From an uncultured Candidatus Saccharimonadales bacterium (GTDB taxonomy: Bacteria; Patescibacteriota; Saccharimonadia; UBA4664): a stretch of 64,000 nt of DNA. A model generated the notes under the pieces. It made no database searches and was not told the origin of the DNA. It was given only the letters and a program-made list of their open reading frames with translations. The translations under genes and the position numbers were made by a program. This document shows positions 6,692-49,550 of the stretch, in pieces; position 1 is the stretch's first letter, and each line of letters starts with the position of its first letter. The stretch spans positions 287,290 to 351,289 of the forward strand of contig CAZSRA010000001.1 in NCBI GenBank assembly GCA_964609585.1, written 5' to 3'.

Positions 6692-7369
6692 CTAAGCTGG
6701 TGGTGGTGTGGTATCGAGATGGAGAGTGGTTTTGCTGGTAACGACACCGCCCTGGTCGAATTCATAGACTATGAGTACGCCAAAGGGCATCTCGAGGTGT
6801 TCCACGGCTTCATTCGAGAGATGCTCGATGTATTTCATGAGGGCACGAATGGTGTTGCCGTGGGCGGTAAGGAGGACGGTTTGGTCCGCTGTGAGCTTGG
6901 GCAAGACGTGGTCTTGAAAATACGGCACAGCTCTTTCATAGACGTCTTTTAGGGTTTCACCGTGCGGCACGGGTTCGTTCCAGCCGCGGCGCCAGCGAGT
7001 GAATTGGTCTTTGCCGTATTTTTCCTCGACTTCCCATTTATTGAGGCCGGTAAGCTGGCCGTAATCGCGTTCATTGAACTCGTGGGCGTGACGTACAGGC
7101 ACCTTCCAATTGTTCGTATGCAGGATGATTTCGAGTGTATCCTTGGCTCTTATAAGTGCCGAGGAATAAGCGATGTTTGGATGATAGTTTGTGAGCGCTT
7201 CGGCCATTTGTTTGGCATCGTGGCGGCCTTTTTTGGTGAGCGGAATGTCCCAAATGCCGGTCCAAAGGCTTTTGGCATTGAATTCTGATTCTCCGTGTCG
7301 AGCAAGGATTAACGTACCCACAAATAGTTGCTCTTTCGTGTTAGTAATCGGGTTGGTTATAGTTATCAT
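6692..7369 (-). CDS. gpmA: 2,3-bisphosphoglycerate-dependent phosphoglycerate mutase (histidine phosphatase superfamily)
   Basis: LILARHGESEFNAKSLWTGIWDIPLTKKGRHDA matches the RHGE catalytic motif of dPGM. I place the start at internal M45 of the tracked ORF (MITITNP...), because the upstream 44 aa are low-complexity. Confidence 0.8.
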   Translation of the reverse strand: MITITNPITNTKEQLFVGTLILARHGESEFNAKSLWTGIWDIPLTKKGRHDAKQMAEALTNYHPNIAYSSALIRAKDTLEIILHTNNWKVPVRHAHEFNERDYGQLTGLNKWEVEEKYGKDQFTRWRRGWNEPVPHGETLKDVYERAVPYFQDHVLPKLTADQTVLLTAHGNTIRALMKYIEHLSNEAVEHLEMPFGVLIVYEFDQGGVVTSKTTLHLDTTPPPA

Positions 7370-7449
7370 AATACACCGCAGGCAAGGGGTGGCCGTTGTA
7401 GAAGTTGGAGTTGACAGGGTCTGTATGTAGTATCGTATACTCAGCTTAA

Positions 7450-7465
7450 GCACTATATGTTGTGT
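7450..7465 (+). promoter_or_regulatory. Candidate NrdR box upstream of the RNR operon
   Basis: gCACTATATgTTGTGt matches 14 of 16 positions of the palindromic NrdR consensus acaCwAtATaTwGtgt; it lies ~180 nt upstream of the nrdA start. Confidence 0.35.
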
Positions 7466-7641
7466 ATGTGCTAGGAGATACCGGAGATGAGACGCCGGCA
7501 ATTATTCGGGGGGATACGGCCCGAATCTCCTCATTTCTTGAGCCCAGAAGCTTCTTTCGGCAGCATTAGTCGGTGAAACTTCCGCCTACTCTTGAGGTGG
7601 CTTTTTATTTCTTAAAATTTCAAAAAAATGAGAGGGGCCGA

Positions 7642-10029
7642 ATGGATATCACCGTTACAAAGCGTGATGGCACAAAACAGCCATATGACGCAAATAAAAT
7701 CAACACAGCGCTGGAGCGAGCCAGTCGTGGACTCGATGACCAAATTGGTATGGTGGTTCAGGTAGCTACCGAGGTGAGCTTGACGCTGTTTGACGGCATT
7801 ACCACGGAGGAGCTCGATGAAGCTGTTATTCAAACAGCTTTGCAGAATGTAAAAGAAGATCCGGCGTTTGATACGATTGCCGCTCGACTGCTGCTTAAAA
7901 CCATATACAAGCGAGTACTGGGTGATTACGAGACAGACGCGGAGCTCAAGAAACTGCATGCCGACAAGTTTGTGAGCTATGTGCGAGCTGGCGTGAAGAG
8001 TGGTCTTTTGGACGAGCGGATGGCGCAGGCCAGCTTCGACTTGAAGAAGTTGGCGGCGGCGATTGATCCGAAACGGGATGATTTGCTGCGGTACCTGGGG
8101 GTGGTGACGACGCGTAATCGCTATAGCCTGCGCAGCACAGACGGTGAACTGCTTGAGGTGCCACAATTTAGTTTGATGCGCGTGGCTATGGGTCTTGCTT
8201 ACAATGAAGCCGATCCGACGACGGTGGCTCTAGGTTTTTATGACAAGATGAGCCGGCTCGACTATTTGCCGGGTGGATCGACGCGGGTGAACGCGGGTAC
8301 GAAGTTTCCTCAGCTTGCCAACTGTTTCCTGATGGAGATGCAAGACGATATTGAGCATATCGCCAAATCCAACCGCGACATTATGTGGATGACTAAAGGT
8401 ACGGGCGGCATTGGCCTGTCGGTGACGAAGTTGCGGGCGGAAGGTTCACCGGTACATAGCAACAATACGTATTCGAGCGGCCCAATCCCCTTCATGCATA
8501 CGGTGGACTCGATTTTGCGAGCGATTTCGCGCAACGGGAAGAAGTTTGGCGCTCTGTGCTTCTATATGGAAAACTGGCACATCGATTTCCCGCAATTTTT
8601 GGACCTGAAACAAAACTCGGGTGATCCGTACCGACGTACTCGTACGGCCAACACCGCGGTGTGGATTTCCGATGAGTTTATGAAGCGGGTCAAAAATGAT
8701 GAAGCTTGGTACTTGTTTGATCCAGCTGAAACGCCCGATCTTAACGAGCTATATGGTGCGGCTTTCAGCAAGCGTTACGCGGAGTACGTGAAGCTGGCGG
8801 AAAGCGGTAAGATGCGCTTATTTAAGAAGATGGGCGCACGTGAGCAATTTAAGGCCATTTTGATCTCGCTGCAGACCACTTCGCACCCATGGCTTACCTG
8901 GAAAGACACGGTGAATAACCGGGCTCTCAACAACAACACGGGCACGATTCACATGAGTAATTTGTGCACAGAGATTTGTTTGCCGCAGGACCGCGAAAAT
9001 ATTGCGGTGTGCAACTTGGCCTCGATTAACTTGTCGGCGCATTTGGTGGAAGAGGCGCGCGATTTTGACTGGCAGCGGCTTGAAGCCAGTGTGCGATCGG
9101 CAGTGCGACAGCTCGACAATTTGATCGACATTACGGTGTCGAACATTGAAGAGGCGACACACTCAAACTTGCAAAACCGCGCGGTGGGCCTGGGGCTCAT
9201 GGGCTTTACGGACGTGACCGAACGGCTAGGAATGGCTTATGAGAGCGACGAAGCTTACGCGCTCATCGATAAGCTTGCTGAATTCATTAGCTACTATGCG
9301 ATTGATGAGAGTGCGAATTTGGCCAAGGAGCGTGGATCGTACCCTATGTACAAGGGCTCGCGGTGGAGTATGGGGCTGGTGCCGTTCGATACTCTTGCGG
9401 AAACAGCCAAGGATCGGCGTGTCAAAATTACGGTGGACCAAAAAGCCAGGCTCGATTGGGACAAGCTGCGGATAAAAGTAAAGAAGGGTGTGCGCAACGC
9501 TACGCTCATGGCGGTGGCGCCGACGGCCAATATGGCTCACACGGCCGGTACGACTCCGGGGATTGATCCGCAGTTTTCGCAAATCTTTAGCCGGGCGACA
9601 CTGAGCGGCAAATTTTTGGAAGTAAACGTGAACTTGGTGGCGGCGCTCAAGAAGCTAGGACTATGGGCTCAGGTGCGCGAGGACATTTTGCGAGCGCAGG
9701 GCGACATTCAGGACATTGAAGCGATTCCGGACGTGATTAAAGCAGTGTACAAGACATCGTTTCAGCTCTCGCCCTATGCGTTCATTGAGGTGGCGGCGCG
9801 CGCGCAGAAATGGATCGACCAGGCGCTGTCGCGCAATATGTATCTTGAAACACGCGACGTAGATGAGATGATGAAGATCTATTCTACGGCCTGGGAGAAG
9901 GGTCTTAAAACCACCTATTACCTGCATGTAAAGCCCAGACATACGGCGGAGCAGAGCACGGTGAAGGTAAATAAGTCGGAGGACATTGTAGCGCGCAAAC
10001 CTGGTTTTGGCTTCGGATTCGGTAAATAG
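7642..10029 (+). CDS. nrdA: Ribonucleoside-diphosphate reductase class I alpha subunit with N-terminal ATP-cone
   Basis: ATP-cone VTKRDGTKQPYDANKI at the N-terminus and a class I large-subunit core (795 aa). GAGAGGGG SD 6 nt upstream of the ATG at 7642; the tracked ORF extends upstream in frame through non-coding-looking sequence. Confidence 0.9.
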   Translation: MDITVTKRDGTKQPYDANKINTALERASRGLDDQIGMVVQVATEVSLTLFDGITTEELDEAVIQTALQNVKEDPAFDTIAARLLLKTIYKRVLGDYETDAELKKLHADKFVSYVRAGVKSGLLDERMAQASFDLKKLAAAIDPKRDDLLRYLGVVTTRNRYSLRSTDGELLEVPQFSLMRVAMGLAYNEADPTTVALGFYDKMSRLDYLPGGSTRVNAGTKFPQLANCFLMEMQDDIEHIAKSNRDIMWMTKGTGGIGLSVTKLRAEGSPVHSNNTYSSGPIPFMHTVDSILRAISRNGKKFGALCFYMENWHIDFPQFLDLKQNSGDPYRRTRTANTAVWISDEFMKRVKNDEAWYLFDPAETPDLNELYGAAFSKRYAEYVKLAESGKMRLFKKMGAREQFKAILISLQTTSHPWLTWKDTVNNRALNNNTGTIHMSNLCTEICLPQDRENIAVCNLASINLSAHLVEEARDFDWQRLEASVRSAVRQLDNLIDITVSNIEEATHSNLQNRAVGLGLMGFTDVTERLGMAYESDEAYALIDKLAEFISYYAIDESANLAKERGSYPMYKGSRWSMGLVPFDTLAETAKDRRVKITVDQKARLDWDKLRIKVKKGVRNATLMAVAPTANMAHTAGTTPGIDPQFSQIFSRATLSGKFLEVNVNLVAALKKLGLWAQVREDILRAQGDIQDIEAIPDVIKAVYKTSFQLSPYAFIEVAARAQKWIDQALSRNMYLETRDVDEMMKIYSTAWEKGLKTTYYLHVKPRHTAEQSTVKVNKSEDIVARKPGFGFGFGK

Positions 10030-15856: not shown

Positions 15857-17377
15857 TTAAGCGTATCCGGAGAAGAAATCAATCTTGATATTGCGACGGT
15901 GCACCCCTAGCTCGGCTAAATTTGTCTTCATGGCTTGTACCATGGAGTAGGTGCCAGAAATGTAGAACGTTCGCTCTAGATAGTCGGGCACTGTTTGCTT
16001 AATGAGCTCTGGTGTGATTCTGCCCGAGATGGTGTATGGGAGTCCTAAGACGTCCGTTTGCTGGGATAGGACATACGTGATATTTAGGCCTAGGGTGATG
16101 CGAGCTTGTTCGAATATCTCTTGGTAGGCAAGATCCTTTTGGTTTTGTGCTGAGTAGAGCATGGTGATAGTTCTGAGCTCGTGCTTATCGAGTAAGTATT
16201 TGGTCATACTCCGGAAGGGGGTGATGCCGATGCCGCCGGCTAAAAAGACAAGCTTTTTGGATTGGTCGTCTGGCATAACGAAATCGCCGGCAAGCTGAGA
16301 GGCCACTATTTGGGTGTCTTGAGTTATGTTTAGAAGTGCTTGCTTGAACGTGCTGCTTGGGTGATAGAATTTGACGCCTATTCGGATATCGGGCTCAGTC
16401 GGTGACGAAGCGAGCGTGAGGTAGCGCCGACTGCCGCGGGCGTCGGCGTGCTTGTGCGGTAACGTCCATTCGAGATATTGGCCAGGTTTGTAGTTGACGG
16501 GTTTGCCGGGCGAAAAGATAAAATCGGCTGTATTGCTGGCGATGGTTAAGCGTTGCTTGAAGGCAGGGAATAATTTGAATTTTGGACTTACGATGTATGC
16601 GAAGACGTTTCCAATGATTAGAGCGAGCTCTGGTGACGAGTAAAATTTGAGAATATGCACTTGAGGCGGGAGTAATGCGGCTACGAGAGCGGCGTACCAA
16701 AGTTGTTTTGTTTGGGTTGGCGGGGAGGTTTGAGGTTCTGTGAGCATAATAAAGCCGAGGAAAAAGACCGGTGAGCTAAGCATCATATTCTGCAAGCTTG
16801 CCAGAATGTTGCCAGAGCTAAAGAAAGAATAGGTAACGGTTGCAATTACTGAGACTGCGAAAAATCCGAGTATCATTGGTTCTTGTCGTAGTTTGCGCAT
16901 TATGAGAATTCCGCCGAGGATGACAAACGGCAACATAATGGCGGTGTCTACCCACCAGCTAGCGGTTTGTTTTGCACCAAGTGCCGTTAAGACGAGAGCT
17001 AGAGCGGCTGGGTTAAACAGATGTTTCTTGTTTATGGTTAAGAGGTATTTTGAAGCGATGGCCAGCCCGGAAGCCGCTAGCATAAAAATAATTCCAAAGC
17101 GGGTTAGGTCCGGTGTGATGATAAGAGCTAGAATCAAACCAGTAATGAGCGAAGATTCGCTATTGATGGGGGCCTCGAATACGTGTGCAAAAACGCGGTT
17201 TATAGCCCAGCAGGCGGCCACCAAAATTACGCTTGAGATGACGATATAGCTTGGGTTGTAGTGAAGATCACCTACGATCGCAAGGCCAACGGCGGCCAGC
17301 AATAGGCCCAAGAGATAGTAAAGGAGCAATCGGTACATCGTGATGGTATCGATAAAAGAATCGATTATTTTATACAT
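15857..17377 (-). CDS. Membrane-anchored FNR-like flavoprotein reductase (N-terminal ~8-TM domain + C-terminal FAD/NAD(P)-binding ferredoxin-reductase fold)
   Basis: C-terminal RRYLTLASSP (RxYS FAD motif) and LVFLAGGIGITPFRSM (NAD(P) GxGxxP motif). The N-terminal 280 aa are polytopic membrane, with no obvious bis-His heme pairs. Confidence 0.75.
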   Translation of the reverse strand: MYKIIDSFIDTITMYRLLLYYLLGLLLAAVGLAIVGDLHYNPSYIVISSVILVAACWAINRVFAHVFEAPINSESSLITGLILALIITPDLTRFGIIFMLAASGLAIASKYLLTINKKHLFNPAALALVLTALGAKQTASWWVDTAIMLPFVILGGILIMRKLRQEPMILGFFAVSVIATVTYSFFSSGNILASLQNMMLSSPVFFLGFIMLTEPQTSPPTQTKQLWYAALVAALLPPQVHILKFYSSPELALIIGNVFAYIVSPKFKLFPAFKQRLTIASNTADFIFSPGKPVNYKPGQYLEWTLPHKHADARGSRRYLTLASSPTEPDIRIGVKFYHPSSTFKQALLNITQDTQIVASQLAGDFVMPDDQSKKLVFLAGGIGITPFRSMTKYLLDKHELRTITMLYSAQNQKDLAYQEIFEQARITLGLNITYVLSQQTDVLGLPYTISGRITPELIKQTVPDYLERTFYISGTYSMVQAMKTNLAELGVHRRNIKIDFFSGYA

Positions 17378-20149: not shown

Positions 20150-20243
20150 TAAGCTTGTTTTTTGCGCTTATGTTTGATTAATGCTCTTACTTAGGAGTAT
20201 AACGCTATCACCCTGTCCCCCACTGTGAATGGAGGTGAGCTTA

Positions 20244-21791
20244 GTGCTCACACTCAGAATGAACCGTCTGCGGACGGGTTGTACCTTGGCACTGCGTTGT
20301 TGCGCGGGGCTGCTTGTGATGACGGCGATCTGGTATTTCGTGATCGTCATGATGCTTCGAAGCTTCCCCACCGATAATACCGAGATCCTCGGTGTGCAGA
20401 TCAGCGTCGGGGCTAGAGCGCCAGGCTTTAGCTTCTGCGGACCTGGTCAGTTGATGACCTACGGAAGTGCTGTGGCGATCCGAGCCATCAGCTCTTGCGG
20501 GCTTGTCCGGCCGGCGATCGAGACGCATGCATCGGGTCAGCAGATCGTGGCGGCTACAAAGGTGAAGGCTGCTTCTGGCGAAGCTGGGCACAAGATCGCT
20601 GCGGCTTACGCACATTGGGCGCTTGTGCGTAGCTTGTGGCTCTTGGGCGTGGCCGTTGTTTTGATAGGTGCTTTCGTCTGGTGGCGTCGTTCCCTGGACA
20701 AGGGGAAGGAGCCATTTGCCGCGACACTTCGGCGGGCCGGTCGACTGGGTGTCGTTTTGATGACGGCGCTGGCGTTGATGTGGGGCGGATCTTTGTGGTC
20801 GGCTTATGCTGGCTCACAGAATCTCAAGACTGTCCGGACGGTTGATCAGCTGTTTGGTTATAACGGCGGCCTTCGGGTTTCGCCAGCGCCCGTGGGTCCA
20901 CGTGTAGCCGGCAAGAACCTGGCGGTCATCGGGGACTCGCGAGTCTCCCCGTGGGAAGATCCGAAAACGCCTGGCTTCAAGCCGCTCGATCCGGAGCTCG
21001 TGACGTTCGACGGTCTGGTTTGCGCCAGAGGTAGCGATTCGCTAGCTGCGTTGCTCCAGCAACTCAATGGGGCTTCGCGGGTGCGGGCCGACAACCTGGC
21101 ATGCCCGAGTGCCACGATCGATCACGGATTGTTGGACGCGCAGCCCCGCAGCTACCAGGCTCCCGGCAGTGCGACGCCCGAAACTGTGATGATCGAGCCG
21201 CAGGTCGGTCTGCTCAAGCAGTTGACCGACTTGCAACAGGTGGTTGTAGTGATCGGGCCGAATGATGTTCACTGGTCGTTCCTGATGGGAACGTGTCTCG
21301 TCATCGGATGCGGCAATCCGGCGGCCGATAGCTCTGTGTCGTCGGAGCTGGCGAACTTCCAGACGTCGTACAACGACTTGCTGGCAGAACTCGCGGCTTT
21401 GCCGACTCATCCGGCGGTTGTGATCGTCGGTTCGTACGGACTCTATGACCCGGGGGCAGCTGGAACTACGTGCGCGGATCTGAAGTCGAGCGTGGGCTCG
21501 CACGATATCAATGCCTACGACATCGAGCAGATAGAAAAGTCGCGTACTGAGCTCAACGGCTTGCTCGAAGCTGGTGCCAAGCGCAAGGGGTTCGCGTATG
21601 TGGAGCCGCAACTAGCTCCCTTGTGCGCACCAGACCCAACGGGTGTGGGCGCTCAAATCGTCGGCACCAGCTCTCCCTACCGGTTCCATCCCACGCGGCT
21701 CGGTGAGCTTGTGCTCGCCGGGCAGGTCAACACCGCCCTGGACCACGCAAGGTTGTCGCTTCCCCCAGCCCTTGTGGGCAGCGGTCGCTAA
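20244..21791 (+). CDS. Membrane-anchored SGNH/GDSL-family hydrolase (G+C-rich gene)
   Basis: GGAGGTG SD at 20230-20237, then GTG at 20244. TM segments near the N-terminus, a GDS block (LAVIGDSRVS) and C-terminal HPT(R) consistent with an SGNH catalytic triad. Much higher G+C than flanks by eye. Confidence 0.7.
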   Translation: MLTLRMNRLRTGCTLALRCCAGLLVMTAIWYFVIVMMLRSFPTDNTEILGVQISVGARAPGFSFCGPGQLMTYGSAVAIRAISSCGLVRPAIETHASGQQIVAATKVKAASGEAGHKIAAAYAHWALVRSLWLLGVAVVLIGAFVWWRRSLDKGKEPFAATLRRAGRLGVVLMTALALMWGGSLWSAYAGSQNLKTVRTVDQLFGYNGGLRVSPAPVGPRVAGKNLAVIGDSRVSPWEDPKTPGFKPLDPELVTFDGLVCARGSDSLAALLQQLNGASRVRADNLACPSATIDHGLLDAQPRSYQAPGSATPETVMIEPQVGLLKQLTDLQQVVVVIGPNDVHWSFLMGTCLVIGCGNPAADSSVSSELANFQTSYNDLLAELAALPTHPAVVIVGSYGLYDPGAAGTTCADLKSSVGSHDINAYDIEQIEKSRTELNGLLEAGAKRKGFAYVEPQLAPLCAPDPTGVGAQIVGTSSPYRFHPTRLGELVLAGQVNTALDHARLSLPPALVGSGR

Positions 21792-25101: not shown

Positions 25102-28100
25102 TTAGTAAGTAGCTACGACTGCGCTGGTCCCAGAAGGGACATTTATGATCGCGTAGTTGACTCCGCTAGCGGTGAACGAAATGGTCGATACTGCTTGGCC
25201 GCCTATTGTTGCGGTAGACAGAGACTGGCCATGGTAGGTGCTTGGGACCATGAGTTGGAGATTGTGAGCGCTCGTACCGAGGGTAAATGTGAGGCTATTT
25301 GCGGCGTAGGTGAGGTTTGTGATGGTTGACGCGTTGCGGGCTGCAAAGAAGGTTTGAGCCTGACGGGCTGAAACCATGGGGATGGTGTTCGATTGAGCCA
25401 CATTTAGGGTATCTGAGGCGCACTGATTGGAGGCGGAGAGGTTATCGAGATGGCAAAGGATCGTAAAGTATCCATAGTAGCCGGTGGATCCGGTAGCGGC
25501 TGTTACGAGGCCGTTGATGGCGGAAAGTGTGGTGGTGGAGGGGTTTTCATCGGTAGCCTGGGTCGTGAATTGCTGTACGCCAGTTGCGTCGCCCGACGGG
25601 TCTGTATATTGCTCGGGGATGCCAGAGCCAGTGAACAAACACTGGCTAACGTTTAAGAACGCATTGGGCCAGCAGGCGCTATTGGTGTCGGCGGTGATGC
25701 CGTGGGCTGCTTCAACGGTGGGGATGGAAGCGTAATCGTTCCACATGCCGTAGCAGTGAAAGCGTTCGGTGAGTGGTGCATAGGCGGAGGAGATGCTGGG
25801 GTAGGACGTGTCCCAGGCATTGATGTCGGAGGTAACGATGGCGTCGAGCTGCGCTGTGGTTTTCCAGTTGCTCGCGCAGGCGCCGGAGCTTGCGATGTGG
25901 GGTGAGACCTCGAAGCCGTTGTCGGTGTAGGGCTTGGCGGAGGCATCCGAGAATGCACCGGCGTAGGCATAGCTCGTGGAGGTGTAGCAGGTCCAGTCGG
26001 CTACGCTGCAGCCTGCGGGGCTCGCTGTGGTTTCGGCGGCGAAGCGACTTAGGGTTTGAGAGCTTCCGGCATGATCGTCACCGGTTAGAACAAGTGCGGC
26101 TTTGGTGACGCCTCCTTGATAGGACGGGAAGTACCAAAGTTTTGGAACGCTACTTGAGGTTTCGATCAGGTTTACGAGCATATGCTGTTGCTCGTCGGCT
26201 TGAGGGATACTGGCTTTACTGACATCAAGCCAACCTTTGCCGAAACGATCCACGAATCGATCTTGATTGTCGGTGGAGACGGTGCTTTGACCGGCTAGAC
26301 CAGGGTTGCCATTTCGGGTATATACAACAGACTTGGCCAGATCGAACATAAACGCGATGGCTTTTCCAGCCCCGACGGTACTTGTAGTGACGGCAGGGTA
26401 TGAAGTGGCGGTTGTTGCATTTGAATAGAGCGTGGCGGTGGCGCCGGCTCCCGACAGTGGGTGCTGGTCGGCTGCCCCATGATATTGCATGGTTTGCGTC
26501 TCGATACCAGGAAATGCCGAAGCGTTGACACCGAAGTAGGCATCGAATAGGGGGCCTTGAGTTTTTGTTCCAATGCCGAGGAAGCTATCTAGATTATCTG
26601 CCGGCTTCATGGCTATGAAGGTGCCGCCGGCGGATGTCCAGGCTGATATTTGTGAGAGTTGCGAGCTGGTGAGTACAACTCCATCTGTCAGGATGATGGT
26701 GCGATATCCCGACAGGTCGAATGAGCTGGTGAGATTGCCGGTGTCCGTGGCGGCACATTCAGGGATTCCTTCGGTCTTGAGAAGCGCACTACAGTAGTCG
26801 TCGGAAAAAGCATTTGTGGGGTCGGTTAATACGAGCAGGGGGCCCGAACCACGAATGCCGGAGCGAGGAGTGGCCTGGGGAGTGGAGGTTGGTGCTTGGT
26901 AATACGTGGTGAAGTCAACGTCAACCCAGTAGTTTGTTGAGTTGTAGGTCGAGTTGGGCCAGACGGGACTAGAGCCATAGGAGTAAACGCCATTTCCCCC
27001 GCTCGCGCTTGAAGCGAGAGCATGGAGTGGCGGGTTATTGACGGCTGTCGCGAGGCCGCCGAGATTAGTCCCGGCATCGTAAGAGTAGTGTCCAACGGGC
27101 GCGAAGTAGGAGGCGGTATAGGTAGTATTTGCAGATACGGGAACTGAGCCGTTAAATTTAACATCTTGCCAGCCAGTGCCGGTTTCATTGGTGAATGTTG
27201 CCTGCGCGAGTAACGAACCGGTGGAGGACCAGAGCTGGCCGATGTGGGTGCCGGAGTTGTAGGACGAACCTTTGTAGAATCGAACACCCGAGATGTAGCC
27301 AGCTGTGTCGGACTGAAACTTCACGCCAACTGACACTGAGTAGGGGTCATTTGAATCGGCATTGGTGGGCGTGGCACTCGATGGCCAAATGGTGGCCGGG
27401 GCGGCCGGAGTGAAGTCGACATCAACCCAGTAGTTGGTGGCCCCGTAGGTGTTTGTGGGGAAGTTGCCGGTCTGATTTGCGGTGTAGAGATAGACACCGT
27501 TTGCACTGACGGAGTTTGCGATGGTGTGAAGCGGAGCGTTGTCGACTGGCGCACTCAGCCCGCCAGAAGTGTAGGAGTAATGACCTTGGGGCGCATAGTA
27601 GCTGGCAACGTAGGTTGTGCCAGCCGTAACGTTCACGGGTGTTGTAAATGTAGCATCCTGCCAGCCAGATGAGGTTTCGTTTGTGAATTGAGCCTGCCCT
27701 AGCTGAGTGCCGTCCGTTGACCACAGGTGTCCATAATGGGTACCGCCGTTAGTGGATCCGCCCTTGAAGAACCGGACGCCGTTTATTTGGCCGTTGGTGT
27801 CACTCGTGAACTTGACTCCGAGTTCGACAGCGTTTGAGTCGGAACCATCGAAGACTGCGGGAGAGGCTTGATTTGACCAGATGTTGTCGAAAGATGAAGA
27901 GCCGCCACTAGAGGCCGAACCTGGCGTGAAGTCGACATCGACCCAGTAATTGGTGGCGTTATAAGAACCGGACGGGAATCCTCCGCCTACGGCGCTTGTG
28001 TATTGATACAGGCCGTTTGTGGTGGTGGAGCTTGATGGCGCGTGGAGAGGCGCGTTGTCGAATGAAGTCGAAAAACCGTTGGAGGTGTAGGAATAGTGAC

Positions 28101-28515
28101 CCTGTGGTGCGTAGTAGCTGGCAACATAAGTTGTGTTCGCGTTGATATTAACGGGGGTGGTAAATGTGACATCTTGCCAACCAGATGTGGTTTCGCTCGT
28201 GAACTGAGCCTCCGCCAGCTGGCTGCCCGAAGTGGTCCAGAGATGGCCGTAGTGGGTGCCGGCATTGGTGGCGTCACCCTTATAAAAACGAACCCCCGTG
28301 ACGGTGCCGGGAGTATCGCTCGTAAATTTGACCCCTAGCTCAACCGCGCCGGAGTCGCCACTTACGGCAACTGCTGGGGTGTCGGTGCTGGAAAAGATAT
28401 TGTTGGAAGCGGCATGGGCGGGAAGTGCCGGTATTACGAATGTGTTAACGACGAGCATGAGAATAGCTGGAATGCCCAACAATTTCCGGCTGACTTTGTT
28501 CAAGATGGATTTCAC
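25102..28515 (-). CDS. Large secreted/surface protein (1137 aa): signal peptide + 3 tandem DUF4082-like ~160-aa repeats + ~600-aa C-terminal domain of unknown function (G+C-rich gene)
   Basis: N-terminus MKSILNKVSRKLLGIPAILMLVVNTFVIPALPAHA is a Sec signal. Three repeats share GVKF(T/Q)SDT.G...GVRF(Y/F)KG...N.GTH.G.LW...G..L..A.FT.ET..GWQD..F..PV.(V/I).A.TTY.ASY(Y/F)AP.GHYSY......NAPLH....NYWVDVDFT. The C-terminal half is Thr/Ser-rich. Confidence 0.8.
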   Translation of the reverse strand: MKSILNKVSRKLLGIPAILMLVVNTFVIPALPAHAASNNIFSSTDTPAVAVSGDSGAVELGVKFTSDTPGTVTGVRFYKGDATNAGTHYGHLWTTSGSQLAEAQFTSETTSGWQDVTFTTPVNINANTTYVASYYAPQGHYSYTSNGFSTSFDNAPLHAPSSSTTTNGLYQYTSAVGGGFPSGSYNATNYWVDVDFTPGSASSGGSSSFDNIWSNQASPAVFDGSDSNAVELGVKFTSDTNGQINGVRFFKGGSTNGGTHYGHLWSTDGTQLGQAQFTNETSSGWQDATFTTPVNVTAGTTYVASYYAPQGHYSYTSGGLSAPVDNAPLHTIANSVSANGVYLYTANQTGNFPTNTYGATNYWVDVDFTPAAPATIWPSSATPTNADSNDPYSVSVGVKFQSDTAGYISGVRFYKGSSYNSGTHIGQLWSSTGSLLAQATFTNETGTGWQDVKFNGSVPVSANTTYTASYFAPVGHYSYDAGTNLGGLATAVNNPPLHALASSASGGNGVYSYGSSPVWPNSTYNSTNYWVDVDFTTYYQAPTSTPQATPRSGIRGSGPLLVLTDPTNAFSDDYCSALLKTEGIPECAATDTGNLTSSFDLSGYRTIILTDGVVLTSSQLSQISAWTSAGGTFIAMKPADNLDSFLGIGTKTQGPLFDAYFGVNASAFPGIETQTMQYHGAADQHPLSGAGATATLYSNATTATSYPAVTTSTVGAGKAIAFMFDLAKSVVYTRNGNPGLAGQSTVSTDNQDRFVDRFGKGWLDVSKASIPQADEQQHMLVNLIETSSSVPKLWYFPSYQGGVTKAALVLTGDDHAGSSQTLSRFAAETTASPAGCSVADWTCYTSTSYAYAGAFSDASAKPYTDNGFEVSPHIASSGACASNWKTTAQLDAIVTSDINAWDTSYPSISSAYAPLTERFHCYGMWNDYASIPTVEAAHGITADTNSACWPNAFLNVSQCLFTGSGIPEQYTDPSGDATGVQQFTTQATDENPSTTTLSAINGLVTAATGSTGYYGYFTILCHLDNLSASNQCASDTLNVAQSNTIPMVSARQAQTFFAARNASTITNLTYAANSLTFTLGTSAHNLQLMVPSTYHGQSLSTATIGGQAVSTISFTASGVNYAIINVPSGTSAVVATY
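26910..28380 (-). repeat. Three tandem ~480-nt coding repeats (DUF4082-like domain units) inside the large surface-protein gene
   Basis: The protein-level triple repeat mapped back to nucleotides; boundaries approximate. Confidence 0.6.
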
Positions 28516-28645
28516 GGGAGCACTCCTGGTTATCAGTAATTCTTAATTCTCAAGCTTCGACTTTAACACACCTATCTACAGATAGGAAAGGCATTAACCA
28601 TCGAACAGGCTTGAGGGGGTATCGAGCCAGAATGAGTAATTCTAA

Positions 28646-29728
28646 TTAATAAATATTTGCTTTATTGAATGCATATCCTGCTCGGAGGAAAAGTAGAGCG
28701 TTGGTGATGAAAGCGACGGCTGCTATGACGAACACGACTCCCCCTTTATTTACGACCCCGAAAAGCAAGATCATGGTGACTGCATAAACTCCGATGAAGA
28801 TGCCGCTTGCGAGTGCTTGCCATAATTTGGAGGCAGCTTGAGCGTAGATCTCGGAGGTAGTTTTTTGGATTCGATACATGAGTATGGCTGTGGCTATCGT
28901 GATAATTGTAATGATGGCCTCAACAGCCAGGGTAACTTTGAATAAGGTTTCGGGAGTAGCGGGAAATGCTTTATGGGGGACGAGCGTAACTATTATTGCT
29001 CCGGCAATGGCGAGTATTGTTGTGAGTTTCCCTGAGCTAGCACGGCTTTTAACTCCGAGGCGTTTCGCATATCCGCGAATTCCGGCATATATAACTATGA
29101 GCGCTGGAATAGTGCAACTGGTAATAATAACCGCCATGTACTGCGATTTTTGGAGATTTAAGATGACAAAAAGTGGCTGTAATAGCTGGGAGGCACCCAT
29201 AATCGTGACTCCTATGCAGATTAAGACATAGTCTTTGCGGACAGGTTTTTGAAGCTCTTTTAGGGCCGCAATGAAGAACCAGGCTGCACCGAGATAAAGC
29301 ATGGCAAAAAATAAGGACGGGCTTAGGAGCTGTTTTAGGTTGTTTTGAGCTGGTCCTAGAGGCAGGAACGATGATATGGCGGTTATGCTTACTGTTAGAG
29401 CCACGACCCCAGCAAGGCTCAGCCGTAGAGTGCCCAACGGATTTTTGCCGCTCATTTTATTTTGTACTCGGAGTCTGAGTGACTCCGTAGTGAGGAGCCG
29501 GATGGTTTCTTTTTCGACGATATAGTGTTCTACTTCTTCTTTCACCTGCTGGAGAGTTTCGAGGTCGGTAGAAGACATTTCAAGCATAGAATCCTGTCGG
29601 GCTGTAATTGCTCGCATGGGATTTAAGATAGTATCTAGCCCCGATAACTGAGTCGCAAGCGAGGCCATGTAAATGATCTCATCGATTAATTGTCGGCCGG
29701 GAGTTGAGATTTTGGATTCATTTAGCAT
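28646..29728 (-). CDS. Hypothetical membrane protein (360 aa; N-terminal soluble region + 6-7 TM C-terminal half)
   Basis: Long ORF with lower G+C than the upstream neighbour; no recognised motif. Confidence 0.55.
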   Translation of the reverse strand: MLNESKISTPGRQLIDEIIYMASLATQLSGLDTILNPMRAITARQDSMLEMSSTDLETLQQVKEEVEHYIVEKETIRLLTTESLRLRVQNKMSGKNPLGTLRLSLAGVVALTVSITAISSFLPLGPAQNNLKQLLSPSLFFAMLYLGAAWFFIAALKELQKPVRKDYVLICIGVTIMGASQLLQPLFVILNLQKSQYMAVIITSCTIPALIVIYAGIRGYAKRLGVKSRASSGKLTTILAIAGAIIVTLVPHKAFPATPETLFKVTLAVEAIITIITIATAILMYRIQKTTSEIYAQAASKLWQALASGIFIGVYAVTMILLFGVVNKGGVVFVIAAVAFITNALLFLRAGYAFNKANIY

Positions 29729-41234: not shown

Positions 41235-42197
41235 TCAGCGCCAGAATTCGGTGAGACGGGCGGCGAGAGCTTTGCCCTGGTCGTAACCGGCATGTGCGGC
41301 GGGCGCACGTTTTGACGGATTCATGACATTCCCCCCGGAGGCGAATATGTCGCGGGCGCTGCCATCCGGGAAGATGGTTTCGACCCGACTGCCGTGGGTG
41401 CGGAGTTCGTCGACCTGGGTGGCGAGGTGCGTGCGCCACTCCAGCGGTTGCAGTGATTTGCCACTGAACGGCGATAGAACTAGCACGCGAGCGTAGCCGG
41501 CGGCCAGATCGGCATTCTCGGCATTAGAGCGGAAGCCGCCGTCGATGTAGCGGTTGTCACCAATATGATAGGGAAGGCCGCTGGAGCAACTGGCAGCGAC
41601 GGCATCCGCCAGGTTGACCCCGCCGCGAGAGTCGAACACGACTGGCTCGCCGGTTCGGGCATCGACCGCCGCGATCTGCACCGCTTGCTGCGGCCAGTGC
41701 TGGCTGGGTAGCCGCGGTTCAACCATGGCGCGCCACTTCGCCGACCAGGAGCCATCCGACGCCGCATCCATTTCGAGTGCTGCGGCGCCCAGTCGGCGGC
41801 GCATGTCGGCCACATTTTTTGCGGCGCCGATGATTGTGGTCAACCTCTCCAGGTGGTTTTGGCTCGTCGCCGGCTTCACGGGTGCAGATCCGAGGCGAGA
41901 CCCGGTCGGAGCTGTTTGTGGCGGGGGCGCGGCAATGGTGGTGGCATACAGTTCGGCTGGAGTCGCGCCGGTGATCTGGGCTGCGACCGTGGATCCGGCG
42001 GATGTGCCAATGATTAGGTCGGCCTTGGTGACGTCCAGCCCGCCGTCAAACAAGCCGGCGACGACGCCGATGAGCCAGGCGTTGCCGGCCGATCCGCCGC
42101 CACCGAGGACTAATGCCTGTTTGCCCGCCTTAGGTTGGTCGTGTTTATCGTCGGTTGCTTCGGATGTAATGTCCGTAATATTGCTTGTCGGTTTCAT
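41235..42197 (-). CDS. Patatin-like phospholipase (G+C-rich gene)
   Basis: Oxyanion GGGxxG (LVLGGGGSAGNAW), nucleophile elbow GTSAGS, catalytic Asp in YIDGGF. Confidence 0.8.
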   Translation of the reverse strand: MKPTSNITDITSEATDDKHDQPKAGKQALVLGGGGSAGNAWLIGVVAGLFDGGLDVTKADLIIGTSAGSTVAAQITGATPAELYATTIAAPPPQTAPTGSRLGSAPVKPATSQNHLERLTTIIGAAKNVADMRRRLGAAALEMDAASDGSWSAKWRAMVEPRLPSQHWPQQAVQIAAVDARTGEPVVFDSRGGVNLADAVAASCSSGLPYHIGDNRYIDGGFRSNAENADLAAGYARVLVLSPFSGKSLQPLEWRTHLATQVDELRTHGSRVETIFPDGSARDIFASGGNVMNPSKRAPAAHAGYDQGKALAARLTEFWR

Positions 42198-47596: not shown

Positions 47597-47690
47597 GATT
47601 ACTCCTTAAATTTAGCAACCTCTTTTCGAGCTCCACGCAGGCTTAGTTCTTGTGCTAGAATTACTCTGCACAGTACTAAATGGATGGTCT

Positions 47691-49550
47691 ATGAAGAAGT
47701 CTTTGTATAATCGTACCACAAGCTGGCTCAGGCGTTTTATTTGGACGTACCATGGCTGGATGGCGGGTGGTTTGCTTTTGCTCATGGCGGGACTTGGTTT
47801 GGGGAGTATGTTGGGTAATTCGGCGACCTCCGACGAAGTTGCGCATATTCCAGCAGGATACGCGACGGTATATTTGCATGACTACCGGCTTAATCCTGAG
47901 CATCCGCCCTTAATGAAGGACCTCGCTGCTCTGCCGCTTCAGTTTATGCACCTAGCGTTTCCGACAGATTTGCCCACTTGGACAATGCAGGGTAACGGTC
48001 AATGGGATGTGGGTCGGTACTTTTTGTACTACCTAGGCAATAATGCGGATATGATTTTGTTTGCGGCGCGGATGCCCATTTTATTGGTGGCGCTGTTGTT
48101 TGGGGTGTTTTTGTATGAGGTGTGTCGGCGTCATTGGGGTACGGGTGTGGGGCTTTTGACCTTGTTTTTCTATTGTTTGAGTCCAAATATTTTGGCTCAT
48201 GCGACGCTTGTTACTACCGATTTAGGATTGAGCGCATTTGCTTTTGTGGCGATTGTGGCATTTGCCCGGTTTGTCAGGATGCCAACGCGATGGAATTTGG
48301 TATGGCTTTCGCTTGCCCTGGCAGGCGTGGAGCTTGTGAAGTTTTCAGCTTTTATTCTGTATCCTTTGCTCGGGTTGATCGCTGCCGGCTTGGTGTGGGC
48401 GATGGATCGTCCAAAGCGGATGCTTGAACGGTTGCGGGTGCTTGTGGGTGGATTTGTTGCCGCCTCAGCCCTTAGCTGGGTATGGATGTGGTTGTTTTAT
48501 ATGCCTCAAGTATGGCTGATGCCTGAAGATGTGCAGAACCGGCTGATCCAAAGCCAGTTGCCGTATGGGCTGGGACATTCGGTGGCTCAAGTTTTGATTA
48601 GTTTTAATCACGGGCCAGTACTAAAGCCGATTGCGCAGTACTTGCTGGGTCTCGCAATGGTATTTGGGCGGGTTGTAGGCGGTGGGGTGACGTATTTTAA
48701 CGGCCAAGCTTCCACCCAGATCTACCGCCTGTATTTTCCGGAGCTCGTATTGCTCAAAACTCAGGTGGCTTTGCTCATTATGCTCGCGGTGGTCATGGGT
48801 TATGGAATATGGCGAGTCGTCACCGGCGACCAGCGGCGTTTGGGCAGATTTGCGAGCCATGTCCGTACACATGTTTTAGAGTGGACATTGGGAATATTTG
48901 GTATTGTCTACTTTTCGATTGCTGTGGCTGGGAATTTGGAGCTTGGGATTCGTCATATTCTGCCAGTTTATATTCCTCTCTTTGTGCTAGTGGCGATTGG
49001 AGTGGTAAAAACTTTGCGACTTTTGGCGAAGCAGGGACAACTCTTGCCAGCTAGCATTGGGTTTGTTGTGCTGGCTGTATGGTACGGTGCAAGTACGATC
49101 CTGGTGTATCCGAGTTATCTTGCGTATTTTAATGAAATTGCCGGCGGACCAGCTCATGCGGATCGGTATTTCTCTGATTCAAGCGTGGACTGGGGGCAGG
49201 ACCTGAAGCGGCTTAAATCCTATGTGGTTGATCATCCTGAGATTAAGCACATAGCAGTTGATTATTTCGGTGGCGGAGATGTGGCATATTATTTTTGTGG
49301 GCGACGCTATGATGAGGCTGGGCATTTAGTTGCTACGCCAGATGGCTATGATTGTTCACACAGCGTTTATGAGCCGTGGCACGCCGGAAACGGTGAGTAT
49401 ACTGGGCAGTACATCGCCGTTTCGGAAGCATACCTTGAGAGTGACCGGTATTTTTCGGTTGCAGAGCATAATCCCGGATATGGTTATCTGCGAGCCCGCC
49501 AGCCTATAGCGAAGATCGGCGGGAGCATTTACGTTTATAAATTGTTTTAG
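47691..49550 (+). CDS. Polyprenol-phosphate-sugar-dependent glycosyltransferase, GT39/PMT_2 (ArnT/Pmt-like), paralog A
   Basis: ~12 TM N-terminal region with the PMT_2/ArnT-type first periplasmic loop (…ATSDEVAHIPAGY…HPPLMKDL…); start at M14 of the tracked ORF. Confidence 0.75.
   Translation: MKKSLYNRTTSWLRRFIWTYHGWMAGGLLLLMAGLGLGSMLGNSATSDEVAHIPAGYATVYLHDYRLNPEHPPLMKDLAALPLQFMHLAFPTDLPTWTMQGNGQWDVGRYFLYYLGNNADMILFAARMPILLVALLFGVFLYEVCRRHWGTGVGLLTLFFYCLSPNILAHATLVTTDLGLSAFAFVAIVAFARFVRMPTRWNLVWLSLALAGVELVKFSAFILYPLLGLIAAGLVWAMDRPKRMLERLRVLVGGFVAASALSWVWMWLFYMPQVWLMPEDVQNRLIQSQLPYGLGHSVAQVLISFNHGPVLKPIAQYLLGLAMVFGRVVGGGVTYFNGQASTQIYRLYFPELVLLKTQVALLIMLAVVMGYGIWRVVTGDQRRLGRFASHVRTHVLEWTLGIFGIVYFSIAVAGNLELGIRHILPVYIPLFVLVAIGVVKTLRLLAKQGQLLPASIGFVVLAVWYGASTILVYPSYLAYFNEIAGGPAHADRYFSDSSVDWGQDLKRLKSYVVDHPEIKHIAVDYFGGGDVAYYFCGRRYDEAGHLVATPDGYDCSHSVYEPWHAGNGEYTGQYIAVSEAYLESDRYFSVAEHNPGYGYLRARQPIAKIGGSIYVYKLF

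What the first reader, a model, noticed from the sequence alone, without database searches (positions are those of the whole stretch)
25102..28515. 1137-aa secreted protein with three tandem DUF4082-like repeats and a large Thr/Ser-rich C-terminal domain of unknown function
It is the largest gene in the window. It is signal-peptide-bearing, repeat-rich and compositionally foreign. DUF4082-type modules are beta-sandwich carbohydrate-binding or adhesin-like, so this protein is a prime candidate for host-surface or substrate attachment. The ~600-aa C-terminal half has no motif I recognise. Its repetitive DNA (~480-nt units) could also mediate phase or length variation.
Basis: partly seen in the sequence, partly recalled or inferred. 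Interest (0 to 1): 0.5.

Follow-up and report, generated by a model that had tools for sequence, protein, structure and literature searches.

The report
Secreted deacetylase-like enzyme with binding repeats
The largest gene in this stretch of a Saccharimonadia (TM7) genome encodes a secreted protein whose "unknown" C-terminal half is predicted to be a polysaccharide-deacetylase-type enzyme, from a large uncatalogued family, hung behind three beta-sandwich repeats; it is probably not a plain adhesin.

Summary
The ORF is real: 25102..28515 on the minus strand, 1137 aa, with a good Shine-Dalgarno and a Sec-type signal peptide. It has three DUF4082 units (Pfam E 9e-141).

Two side claims fail. The repeats are only 57-65% identical at DNA level, with no shared word above 14 nt and no TRF array, so they are no substrate for phase or length variation. 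GC and GC3 lie within 0.5 SD of the other genes, so the gene is not compositionally foreign.

Catalytic-type residues (D813, H815, H873, R918, H920, H1022, D1024) are near-invariant across 148 divergent representatives. The second histidine of the canonical Asp-His-His triad is missing.

A DUF4082 unit models as a PHR-like beta-sandwich (pLDDT 96).

Best reading: a secreted, modular, metal-dependent glycan deacetylase or esterase from an unclassified NodB-fold family. Activity and substrate are untested.

The parts
28523..28527 (-). Shine-Dalgarno AGGAG, 7 nt upstream of the GTG start codon
   Evidence: Read directly from the sequence.
25102..28515 (-). Complete CDS: 1137 aa plus stop codon. 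The mature protein is about 115 kDa with pI 4.55.
   Evidence: The exact protein is also on record on a 369-kb NCBI contig and on a Logan contig.
28411..28515 (-). Sec-type (type I) signal peptide, aa 1-35. Predicted cleavage is AHA|AS. There is no lipobox and no twin-arginine motif.
   Evidence: n-region charge +4; Kyte-Doolittle maximum 2.2 at aa 12-30; the only hydrophobic segment. Homologues have similar N-termini. This is a heuristic; no SignalP run was possible.
27919..28410 (-). DUF4082 repeat 1 (aa 36-199), a PHR-like beta-sandwich
27403..27894 (-). DUF4082 repeat 2 (aa 208-371), 66% aa identity to repeat 1. Like repeat 1, it is of the distal type seen in two-repeat orthologues.
26902..27402 (-). 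DUF4082 repeat 3 (aa 372-538), 54-56% identity to repeats 1 and 2. It is orthologous to the module-proximal repeat of relatives.
26851..26901 (-). Thr/Pro/Gln-rich linker (aa 539-555), low model confidence
   Evidence: pLDDT below 50 for module residues 1-11.
26149..26850 (-). GATase1/ThuA/GH42M-like alpha/beta domain plus linker helices (aa 556-789). It has no conserved nucleophile Cys and contains the invariant PQADE motif (aa 771-775).
25330..26148 (-). NodB-type (beta/alpha)7 deacetylase-like barrel (aa 790-1062)
26071..26079 (-). MT1-like motif D813-D814-H815 at the C-terminal end of barrel strand 1 (TGDDH). D813 is the putative catalytic base.
   Evidence: Conservation: D813 148/148, D814 130/148, H815 146/148. 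Strand position. Motif definition from PMC10967932.
25897..25917 (-). GFEVSPH (aa 867-873), matching the CE4 'GHEVG' strand 3 plus the first MT2 histidine (H873). The second MT2 histidine is absent.
   Evidence: G867, F868, E869 and H873 are conserved in 144-148 of 148; the H+4 column is a gap in 134/148.; PMC10967932.
25753..25764 (-). R918-F-H920-C921, MT3-like. R918 is the putative partner of the catalytic base. H920 is invariant and a candidate replacement metal ligand. C921 is conserved together with C880.
   Evidence: R918 148/148, H920 148/148, C921 146/148.
25444..25452 (-). H1022-L-D1024 within ILCHLD, MT5-like. H1022 is the putative catalytic acid and D1024 its possible activating residue.
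   Evidence: H1022 147/148, D1024 145/148. An Asp directly after MT5 activates the acid in PelA-DA (PMC13254593).
25105..25329 (-). C-terminal beta-sandwich (aa 1063-1137). There is no LPXTG motif and no membrane anchor.
   Evidence: DSSP strands 529-601 of the model, pLDDT about 95. No anchor motif found. Agd3 and PelA also end in beta-rich domains (PMC7229062, PMC12022489).

Best explanation
The gene encodes a secreted, modular carbohydrate-active enzyme of a Candidatus Saccharimonadia (TM7/CPR) bacterium.

Inferred steps:
1. A Sec signal peptide (aa 1-35) directs export and is cleaved after AHA.
2. Three PHR-like DUF4082 beta-sandwiches (aa 36-538) act as spacer or ligand-binding modules that hold the enzyme on a polymeric, probably glycan, substrate.
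3. The C-terminal ~580 aa form one conserved catalytic module: a non-catalytic GATase1-like alpha/beta domain, a NodB-fold (beta/alpha)7 barrel and a beta-sandwich. PelA (CE21) has these in the same order, and the barrel and C-terminal beta-rich part are structurally closest to Agd3 (CE18).
4. The barrel hydrolyses an acetyl group (N-acetyl or O-acetyl) from a polysaccharide by the CE4-type mechanism. D813 acts as base, oriented by R918. A metal-bound water attacks. H1022 acts as acid, tuned by D1024.
5. The metal site is non-canonical. It has H873 plus D814 and/or H815 and H920, in place of Asp-His-His.

Shown: the ORF, the repeats, the signal-like N-terminus, the fold assignments from high-confidence models, the family size and the residue conservation.

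Inferred: export, catalytic activity, residue roles, metal dependence, glycan binding by DUF4082 and the substrate.
For: - The ORF, start signals and signal peptide are in place.
- There are three DUF4082 units.
- The module model has pLDDT 90.7 and pTM 0.91.
- The Foldseek top hit is the Agd3 deacetylase (E 2.2e-14), and PelA scores 6.3e-8.
- The linear order of elements matches the canonical NodB1 order given in PMC10967932: strand-TGDDH, helix, strand, helix, GFEVSPH strand, RFHCYG, ILCH.
- D813, H815, H873, R918, H920, H1022 and D1024 are each conserved in at least 145 of 148 representatives that are no more than 50% identical to each other.
- Conserved Cys pairs occur only in the C-terminal half, and fusion partners in the family are all extracellular modules (Big_5, fn3, Laminin_G_3, T9SS tail).
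- Nineteen of 80 loci in unrelated phyla carry acetamido-sugar or nucleotide-sugar genes within 8 kb.
Against: - There is no sequence-level link to any deacetylase: Pfam, NCBIfam, PDB phmmer or hmmsearch with the whole module or the sub-domain, and hhalign against ArnD all fail.
- The second histidine of the canonical metal triad is absent family-wide, and D814 is only 88% conserved.
- Residue roles could not be checked in 3D because the tools do not return model coordinates.
- No conserved operon exists, and the window neighbours (SDR, TetR, glyoxalase, MFS) give no substrate clue.
- The best DUF4082 structural matches are PHR domains and phage decoration domains, not established CBMs.
- No experimental data exist for any member.
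Confidence: 0.6

Rival explanations
1. It is a non-enzymatic adhesin or attachment protein. The DUF4082 repeats and the C-terminal half only bind a host or substrate surface, and the NodB-like barrel is a catalytically dead binding scaffold (a pseudoenzyme like BA0150 or BA3943).
Against: Seven polar catalytic-type residues at strand ends are conserved in at least 145 of 148 divergent clusters, which is not the pattern expected of decayed active sites. There is no cell-anchoring motif. The module occurs mostly without DUF4082 (79 of 120 homologues) and in free-living bacteria of many phyla.
Confidence: 0.12
2. It is a NodB-fold hydrolase acting on a non-polysaccharide or unusual substrate. Examples would be an amidohydrolase or deformylase acting on a lipid-linked sugar, a small molecule or a peptide, like ArnD or the PuuE allantoinases, which share the fold.
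Against: ArnD and PuuE are small single-domain cytoplasmic or membrane-face enzymes. Here the module is secreted, carries beta-sandwich modules and aligns over 383-407 residues with the multidomain exopolysaccharide deacetylases Agd3 and PelA. Both MT1 aspartates are kept, unlike in PuuE.
Confidence: 0.15
3. It is a glycoside hydrolase and not an esterase. The barrel belongs to the same glycoside hydrolase/deacetylase superfamily as GH38 and GH57, and the GATase-like plus beta-sandwich accessory domains resemble GH42, GH164 and GH151 enzymes.
Against: Those top hits align only 183-260 residues, which is the accessory GATase-like domain and not their TIM-barrel catalytic domains. The conserved set Asp-Asp-His / His / Arg-x-His / His-x-Asp follows deacetylase motif order, not a Glu/Asp nucleophile and acid pair.
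Confidence: 0.08
4. It is a phase-variable or length-variable surface protein whose repeat number changes by recombination or slippage between the ~500-nt units.
For: Copy number differs among homologues: 0, 1, 2 or 3.
Against: DNA identity between units is 57-65%, the longest exact match is 12-14 nt, and TRF finds no array. The extra copy is an old duplication of the distal repeat (66% aa identity). The 90% cluster holds no length variant of the full protein.
Confidence: 0.02

Closest known systems
Agd3 of Aspergillus fumigatus (PDB 6NWZ; founding member of CE18, galactosaminogalactan de-N-acetylase)
   Same: - It is a secreted multidomain enzyme with an N-terminal beta-sandwich binding module.
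- The catalytic base Asp, the Arg that orients it and the acid His have positional counterparts here (D813, R918, H1022).
   Different: - There is no sequence similarity detectable by phmmer, hmmsearch or Pfam.
- Agd3 has CBM87; this protein has DUF4082 repeats and an extra GATase1-like domain.
- Agd3 has HxxxH (H510/H514) and a 64-aa insertion between CM1 and CM2. Here the spacing is CE4-like (about 56 residues) and the second His is missing.
- Agd3 lies in a GAG gene cluster. This gene has no such neighbours.
PelA of Pseudomonas (PDB 9CGY; CE21 deacetylase domain)
   Same: - It has the same order of three domains: a GATase/IFT52-like mixed alpha/beta domain, a (beta/alpha)7 deacetylase and a beta-rich domain (PMC12022489).
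- It also departs from the canonical CE4 motifs near MT1 and MT3.
   Different: - PelA has an N-terminal GH166 hydrolase domain, is periplasmic within the pel operon and keeps the Asp-His-His triad (D530/H600/H604) while lacking the MT3 Arg.
- This family keeps the Arg (R918) and lacks the second His.
- There is no sequence-level similarity.
CE4 / NodB-domain polysaccharide deacetylases (Pfam PF01522), especially the divergent NodB1.2 group (3RXZ, 3QBU)
   Same: - It has the same linear order of MT1 (T-x-D-D), the GHEVG-like strand, the first MT2 His, the MT3 Arg and the MT5 L-x-H (PMC10967932).
- 3RXZ and 3QBU are also the closest CE4 structural relatives of Agd3.
   Different: - It fails the PF01522 HMM entirely.
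- The second MT2 His is absent.
- It has extra invariant H815 and H920.
- The barrel is embedded between two additional domains.
PHR domains (Pfam PF08005; BTBD2 3NO8, MYCBP2 3GBW) and DUF4082 (PF13313)
   Different: PHR domains are eukaryotic intracellular modules of unknown ligand. Here the fold is extracellular, tandemly repeated and fused to an enzyme. No function is established for DUF4082; only two papers mention it, neither of them functional.

Membership tests
DUF4082 (Pfam PF13313) | Match to the family HMM above the gathering score | tested here: met
   463.8 bits against a cut-off of 28.4, in three stretches. Boundaries are aa 36-199, 208-371 and 372-538.
PHR-domain fold | Beta-sandwich superposable on solved PHR domains, and a Pfam PHR match | tested here: met
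   [not shown]
CE4 (NodB, PF01522) | Sequence membership: a match to Polysacc_deac_1 or any CE4 chain | tested here: not met
   No hit even at E <= 10, with the single sequence, 20 sub-domain sequences or profiles. hhalign against ArnD gives probability 0.2%.
CE4 (NodB, PF01522) | Distorted (beta/alpha)7 NodB barrel | tested here: met
   [not shown]
CE4 / CE18 / CE21 | Asp-His-His metal triad (MT1 Asp plus HxxxH of MT2/CM2) | tested here: not met
   The first His is present (H873, 148/148). The H+4 column is a gap or variable in the whole family, and D814 is 130/148. Whether H815 or H920 substitutes could not be tested without coordinates.
CE4 / CE18 | Catalytic base Asp, Arg that orients it, and catalytic acid His | tested here: inconclusive
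   D813 (148/148), R918 (148/148) and H1022 (147/148) sit where MT1, MT3 and MT5 are expected in the strand order. The spatial arrangement was not verifiable.
CE18 (Agd3-like) | Sequence homology to Agd3 across CBM87, the CE domain and the C-terminal domain, and location in an exopolysaccharide cluster | tested here: not met
   6nwz is absent from all PDB sequence searches. The N-terminus is DUF4082, not CBM87. The neighbours are SDR, TetR, glyoxalase and MFS genes.
CE21 (PelA-like) | GH166 hydrolase domain, alpha/beta domain, deacetylase and beta-rich domain, within a pel operon | tested here: not met
   The last three domains are matched at fold level. There is no hydrolase domain and no pel genes. 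The MT1 pattern is DDH, not HxDxD.
Class I glutamine amidotransferase | Cys-His-Glu catalytic triad on the GATase1 fold | tested here: not met
   [not shown]
Sec-dependent secreted protein (type I signal peptide) | Positive n-region, hydrophobic h-region and an AxA cleavage site | tested here: met
   Heuristic only: charge +4, Kyte-Doolittle 2.2 over 19 residues, AHA|AS. Similar N-termini occur in most full-length homologues. No SignalP run or experiment was possible.
Phase- or length-variable repeat protein (contingency locus) | Near-identical tandem DNA repeats or simple-sequence tracts | tested here: not met
   TRF finds 0 arrays. Units are 57-65% identical, with a maximum exact word of 14 nt. 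Only a 41-nt repeat at 76-80% identity is found.
Sortase-anchored (LPXTG) adhesin | C-terminal LPXTG motif, hydrophobic segment and charged tail | tested here: not met
   There is no LPxT[GAS] motif and no hydrophobic segment outside the signal peptide.

The most novel reading that the evidence does not exclude
The ~600-aa C-terminal module defines a new, very large carbohydrate-esterase family. It has at least 4,000 clusters at 50% identity and spans Patescibacteria, Actinomycetota, Acidobacteriota, Chloroflexota, Bacteroidota, Cyanobacteria, Myxococcota and Proteobacteria. Its architecture is PelA-like (GATase-like domain, NodB barrel, beta-sandwich). Its metal site is non-canonical: the second MT2 histidine is replaced by the family-specific invariant H815 and/or H920. 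In the genome-reduced TM7 epibiont it would be a secreted enzyme, targeted by three DUF4082 modules, that de-acetylates a cell-envelope glycan of its actinobacterial host or its own surface polymer, to enable attachment or feeding.
Probability: 0.3. Interest if true: 0.7.

Novelty: new variant of a known kind. Interest (0 to 1): 0.55.

Why it matters
Three founding papers (CE18 in 2020, CE21 in 2025, PelA-DA in 2026) each created a new carbohydrate-esterase family from a NodB-fold enzyme that sequence methods could not classify. Each turned out to control biofilm polysaccharide charge.

The module found here has the same character: fold and motif order are conserved, sequence membership fails and the metal site is altered. 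It is far more widespread, with thousands of clusters, often inside giant surface proteins, yet it has no Pfam model, no name and no literature. A biochemical characterisation would annotate thousands of 'hypothetical' or 'DUF4082/Ig-like domain' proteins at once. It would also give DUF4082 its first functional context.

In Saccharimonadia, whose ~1-Mb genomes retain few large genes, a 3.4-kb secreted glycan-modifying enzyme is a concrete and testable candidate for interaction with the host cell envelope.

Tried and rejected
- Tandem Repeats Finder on the gene found nothing, and the repeat finder found only a 41-nt imperfect repeat. The slippage or recombination idea is rejected.
- PDB sequence searches gave only chance-level hits. 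These used the whole protein, the module profile A1 and the deacetylase sub-domain profile A2.
- Pfam at E <= 10 on the module and on 20 sub-domain sequences found no deacetylase family. NCBIfam found nothing.
- A regex search for canonical CE4 genes (TFDDG...HSxxH) in the 81 fetched loci and the window, to build a CE4 profile, found none.
- All-vs-all clustering of ORFs in 80 loci found no neighbour in more than 11 loci, so no conserved operon exists. Only a minority association with nucleotide-sugar genes appeared.
- The compositional-foreignness claim is rejected by the GC and GC3 comparison.
- The listing of cluster members on the target and on housekeeping proteins returned no organism names and no strain variants. 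Taxonomy was instead obtained from DnaB homologues and synteny with L002.
- Literature: only two papers mention DUF4082, neither of them functional. Nothing was found on this module in Saccharibacteria.
- Model coordinates are not exposed by the tools, so distances between the putative catalytic residues could not be measured.
Full report
OBSERVATION. An AGGAG Shine-Dalgarno sits 7 nt upstream. It is the longest ORF in the window; the next longest is 818 aa. Pfam finds three DUF4082 units (463.8 bits against a gathering score of 28.4, E 9.4e-141) and a weaker but above-threshold PHR match. My own HMM places the units at aa 36-199, 208-371 and 372-538.

The N-terminus reads as a type I Sec signal. 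The n-region is MKSILNKVSRK (net charge +4). The hydrophobic core of 19 residues (Kyte-Doolittle 2.2) is the only hydrophobic segment in the protein. The cleavage site is AHA|AS. There is no lipobox, no LPXTG motif and no C-terminal anchor. The protein is rich in Thr (12.7%), Ser (12.2%) and Ala (11.3%) in both halves. All ten Cys residues lie in the C-terminal half.

Two side observations do not hold:
- The gene is not compositionally foreign at nucleotide level. Its GC is 0.554 and its GC3 is 0.618, against 0.533 +/- 0.043 and 0.589 +/- 0.073 for 30 other ORFs in the window.
- The 'repetitive DNA' is too diverged to matter mechanistically. Unit spacing is 501 and 516 nt. Codon-threaded DNA identity is 57-65%. 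The longest shared exact word is 12-14 nt. TRF reports no array. The only direct repeat is a 41-nt stretch at 76-80% identity, which encodes the conserved NYWVDVDFT strand.

ORGANISM AND CONTEXT. The window is ordinary chromosome. It carries ribonucleotide reductase, G6PD, CysRS, DnaB, DnaX, phosphoglucomutase and two PMT_2 glycosyltransferases. All named relatives of its DnaB, at 72-90% identity, are Candidatus Saccharimonadia, Saccharibacteria or Patescibacteria. A Saccharimonadia MAG locus (L002) shares the target (56%), the adjacent TetR (55%) and an AHSA1-like gene (52%). The exact protein is on record on a 369-kb NCBI contig and on a Logan assembly of SRR9179560. The immediate neighbours are an SDR, two TetR regulators, a Pfam-less 360-aa membrane protein, a glyoxalase-fold protein and an MFS transporter. 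There is no polysaccharide operon and no paralogue elsewhere in the window.

THE C-TERMINAL HALF IS A CONSERVED, UNCATALOGUED MODULE. A search with aa 552-1137 returned hundreds of full-length matches, with E values down to 1e-264. An exhaustive profile search found 4,115 clusters at 50% identity with E <= 1e-3, of which 1,949 have E <= 1e-30. More than 533 GTDB species genomes encode the module. They include cultured Myxococcus, Pyxidicoccus, Kitasatospora, Actinoplanes, Dyadobacter, Hymenobacter, Pontibacter, Calothrix and Chroococcidiopsis.

The module is fused to many extracellular beta-sandwich modules: DUF4082, Big_5, Laminin_G_3, fn3, Big_13 and a T9SS sorting tail. It sometimes sits inside proteins of up to 5,513 aa. 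Sources name these proteins only 'hypothetical', 'DUF4082 domain-containing' or 'Ig-like domain-containing'. Sequence methods see nothing known in it:
- Pfam gives only sub-threshold Glyco_hydro_42M (E 0.006) and DUF4350 (E 0.03).
- NCBIfam gives nothing.
- PDB searches with the single sequence, the module profile or the barrel-only profile give chance-level hits only.

STRUCTURE. AlphaFold2 with a 50-sequence alignment gives a confident model (mean pLDDT 90.7, pTM 0.91).

Foldseek against the PDB ranks the Aspergillus galactosaminogalactan deacetylase Agd3 (6nwz) first at E 2.2e-14, with PelA (9cgy) at 6.3e-8. Many GH42 and GH164 enzymes match only about 200 residues.

A C-terminal beta-sandwich completes the module. 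This three-part order is the one described for PelA minus its hydrolase domain (PMC12022489). 3RXZ and 3QBU are also the closest CE4 structural relatives of Agd3 (PMC10967932).

ACTIVE-SITE LOGIC. In NodB enzymes the active site is built from the C-terminal ends of the barrel strands. The motifs come in a fixed order: strand 1 with LTFDDGP (MT1), helix 1, strand 2, helix 2, GHEVG as strand 3, the H(S/T)xxH loop (MT2), RPPYG (MT3), DW (MT4) and IILMH (MT5) (PMC10967932). The model and sequence here give the following order:

| Canonical NodB1 element | Element in this protein |
|---|---|
| Strand 1 + LTFDDGP (MT1) | Strand + VLT-G-D813-D814-H815 |
| Helix 1, strand 2, helix 2 | Helix, strand, helix |
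| GHEVG (strand 3) + first MT2 His | G-F-E869-V-S-P-H873, as a strand |
| RPPYG (MT3) | R918-F-H920-C-Y-G |
| IILMH (MT5) | I-L-C-H1022-L-D1024 |

I scored 148 representatives from the exhaustive search, which are no more than 50% identical to one another. Conservation is as follows:

| Residue | Conserved |
|---|---|
| D813 | 148/148 |
| H815 | 146/148 |
| E869 | 144/148 |
| H873 | 148/148 |
| R918 | 148/148 |
| H920 | 148/148 |
| H1022 | 147/148 |
| D1024 | 145/148 |
| C880 and C921 | 146/148 each |

The departures from the canon are clear. The second MT2 histidine is absent; that column is a gap in 134 of 148. D814, the canonical metal Asp, is conserved in only 130 of 148. H815 and H920 are invariant additions with no canonical counterpart.

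By analogy with Agd3 (base D377, triad D378/H510/H514, R613, acid H668; PMC7229062), I assign the following roles:
- D813 as base.
- R918 as its partner.
- H873 as a metal ligand.
- H1022 as acid.
- D1024 as its activator, as described for PelA-DA (PMC13254593).
- H815 and/or H920 as replacement ligands.

These roles are inferred. The tools do not expose model coordinates, and profile-profile alignment with ArnD fails. The GATase-like domain has no conserved nucleophile Cys, so it is presumably structural, as in GH42 enzymes and PelA.

All three repeats keep the family's invariant aromatic and polar residues. The literature holds only two passing mentions of DUF4082.

COPY NUMBER. Among the 120 best homologues of the module, 79 have no DUF4082, 15 have one and 26 have two. 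Only the window protein has three. In a repeat tree, the window's repeats 1 and 2 both group with the distal repeat of two-repeat orthologues (62-72% identity). Repeat 3 groups with their module-proximal repeat and with the single repeat of one-repeat proteins (65-72%). The third copy is therefore an old duplication of the distal unit. It reflects domain accretion on an evolutionary time scale, not a switch.

GENOMIC ASSOCIATIONS ELSEWHERE. No neighbour is conserved; the best ORF cluster occurs in 11 of 80 loci. However, 19 of 80 loci from unrelated phyla carry a DegT-type sugar aminotransferase, an NAD epimerase/dehydratase, a hexapeptide acetyltransferase and/or a GFO/IDH/MocA oxidoreductase within 8 kb. 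This is the gene set that makes acetamido sugars for surface polysaccharides. The association is weak and held by a minority of loci, but it is consistent with a role on N-acetylated surface glycans. It is absent in the window itself.

INTERPRETATION. The most likely reading (confidence about 0.6) is a secreted, modular, metal-dependent glycan deacetylase or esterase. The three DUF4082 beta-sandwiches bind or space the enzyme on a polymer, and the NodB barrel removes acetyl groups by the CE4-type mechanism with an altered metal site.

The rivals are:
- A catalytically dead adhesin (0.12). The invariance of the polar constellation argues against it.
- A NodB-fold hydrolase for a non-polysaccharide substrate (0.15).
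- A glycosidase (0.08). The glycosidase hits cover only the accessory domain.
- A phase-variable repeat protein (0.02).

COMPARISON AND NOVELTY. The protein works like Agd3 and PelA, but it fails membership tests for CE4, CE18 and CE21. It has no sequence match, an incomplete Asp-His-His triad, no CBM87, no GH166 domain and no EPS operon. It is a bona fide member of DUF4082 and of the PHR fold. I therefore rate it a new variant of a known kind: an unclassified NodB-fold family with PelA-like architecture. Recent precedents founded CE18, CE21 and the PelA-DA family on the same kind of evidence plus biochemistry. The missing piece here is activity.

I score interest at 0.55. The finding is not a new principle. 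It does expose a very large family that no database describes, it gives DUF4082 its first functional context, and it offers a concrete secreted effector candidate in an epibiotic CPR bacterium.

Noticed in passing
window 1-64000: GC skew is positive in every 1-kb bin across the whole 64 kb, whatever the strand of the genes. Cumulative skew rises monotonically to 10.7. The window presumably lies wholly on one replichore.
   Followed up: no
window 28646-29728 (-): A 360-aa multi-pass membrane ORF with no Pfam hit lies 130 nt upstream of the target and runs in the same direction. It is present on the Logan contig L001, but no homologue lies beside the orthologue in the Saccharimonadia locus L002.
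   Followed up: partly
window 47652-49550 (+) and 50326-51870 (-): Two PMT_2-type (dolichyl-phosphate-mannose-protein mannosyltransferase-like) membrane glycosyltransferases flank a 260-aa ORF, next to DnaB and DnaX. They may be relevant to surface glycan synthesis in this small genome.
   Followed up: no
window 15857-17377 (-): A 506-aa ORF combines an NQR2/RnfD/RnfE-like membrane region with a C-terminal NAD_binding_1 oxidoreductase domain. This is an unusual fusion.
   Followed up: no
window 20229-21791 (+) and 41235-42197 (-): These are the two ORFs with the highest GC in the window (0.607 and 0.639, against a mean of 0.533). The 520-aa ORF has no Pfam hit. They are better candidates for 'compositionally foreign' than the target gene.
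   Followed up: no
L003 (CAWARR010000010.1, 'uncultured Actinomycetota' MAG) 6873-9770: The closest relative of the whole protein outside Saccharimonadia (45-47% identity, two DUF4082 units plus the module) is binned as Actinomycetota, the phylum of the known hosts of cultured Saccharibacteria. This could reflect host-epibiont gene transfer or mis-binning.
   Followed up: no
L005, L006, L035 and 16 other loci (within 8 kb of the module): DegT aminotransferase, NAD epimerase/dehydratase, hexapeptide acetyltransferase and GFO/IDH/MocA oxidoreductase genes recur near the module in 19 of 80 loci from unrelated phyla.
   Followed up: partly
L001 2757-6170 (= window target): The precomputed annotation lists a 'faint' hit to PF27624 'Porph_assoc' on the target protein. 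My Pfam-A copy did not reproduce it, even at E <= 10.
   Followed up: no
L002-L081: The ORF cluster containing the module has 115 members in 74 loci. Many genomes may therefore carry two or more adjacent copies, or my ORF caller may have split some genes. I did not resolve which.
   Followed up: no
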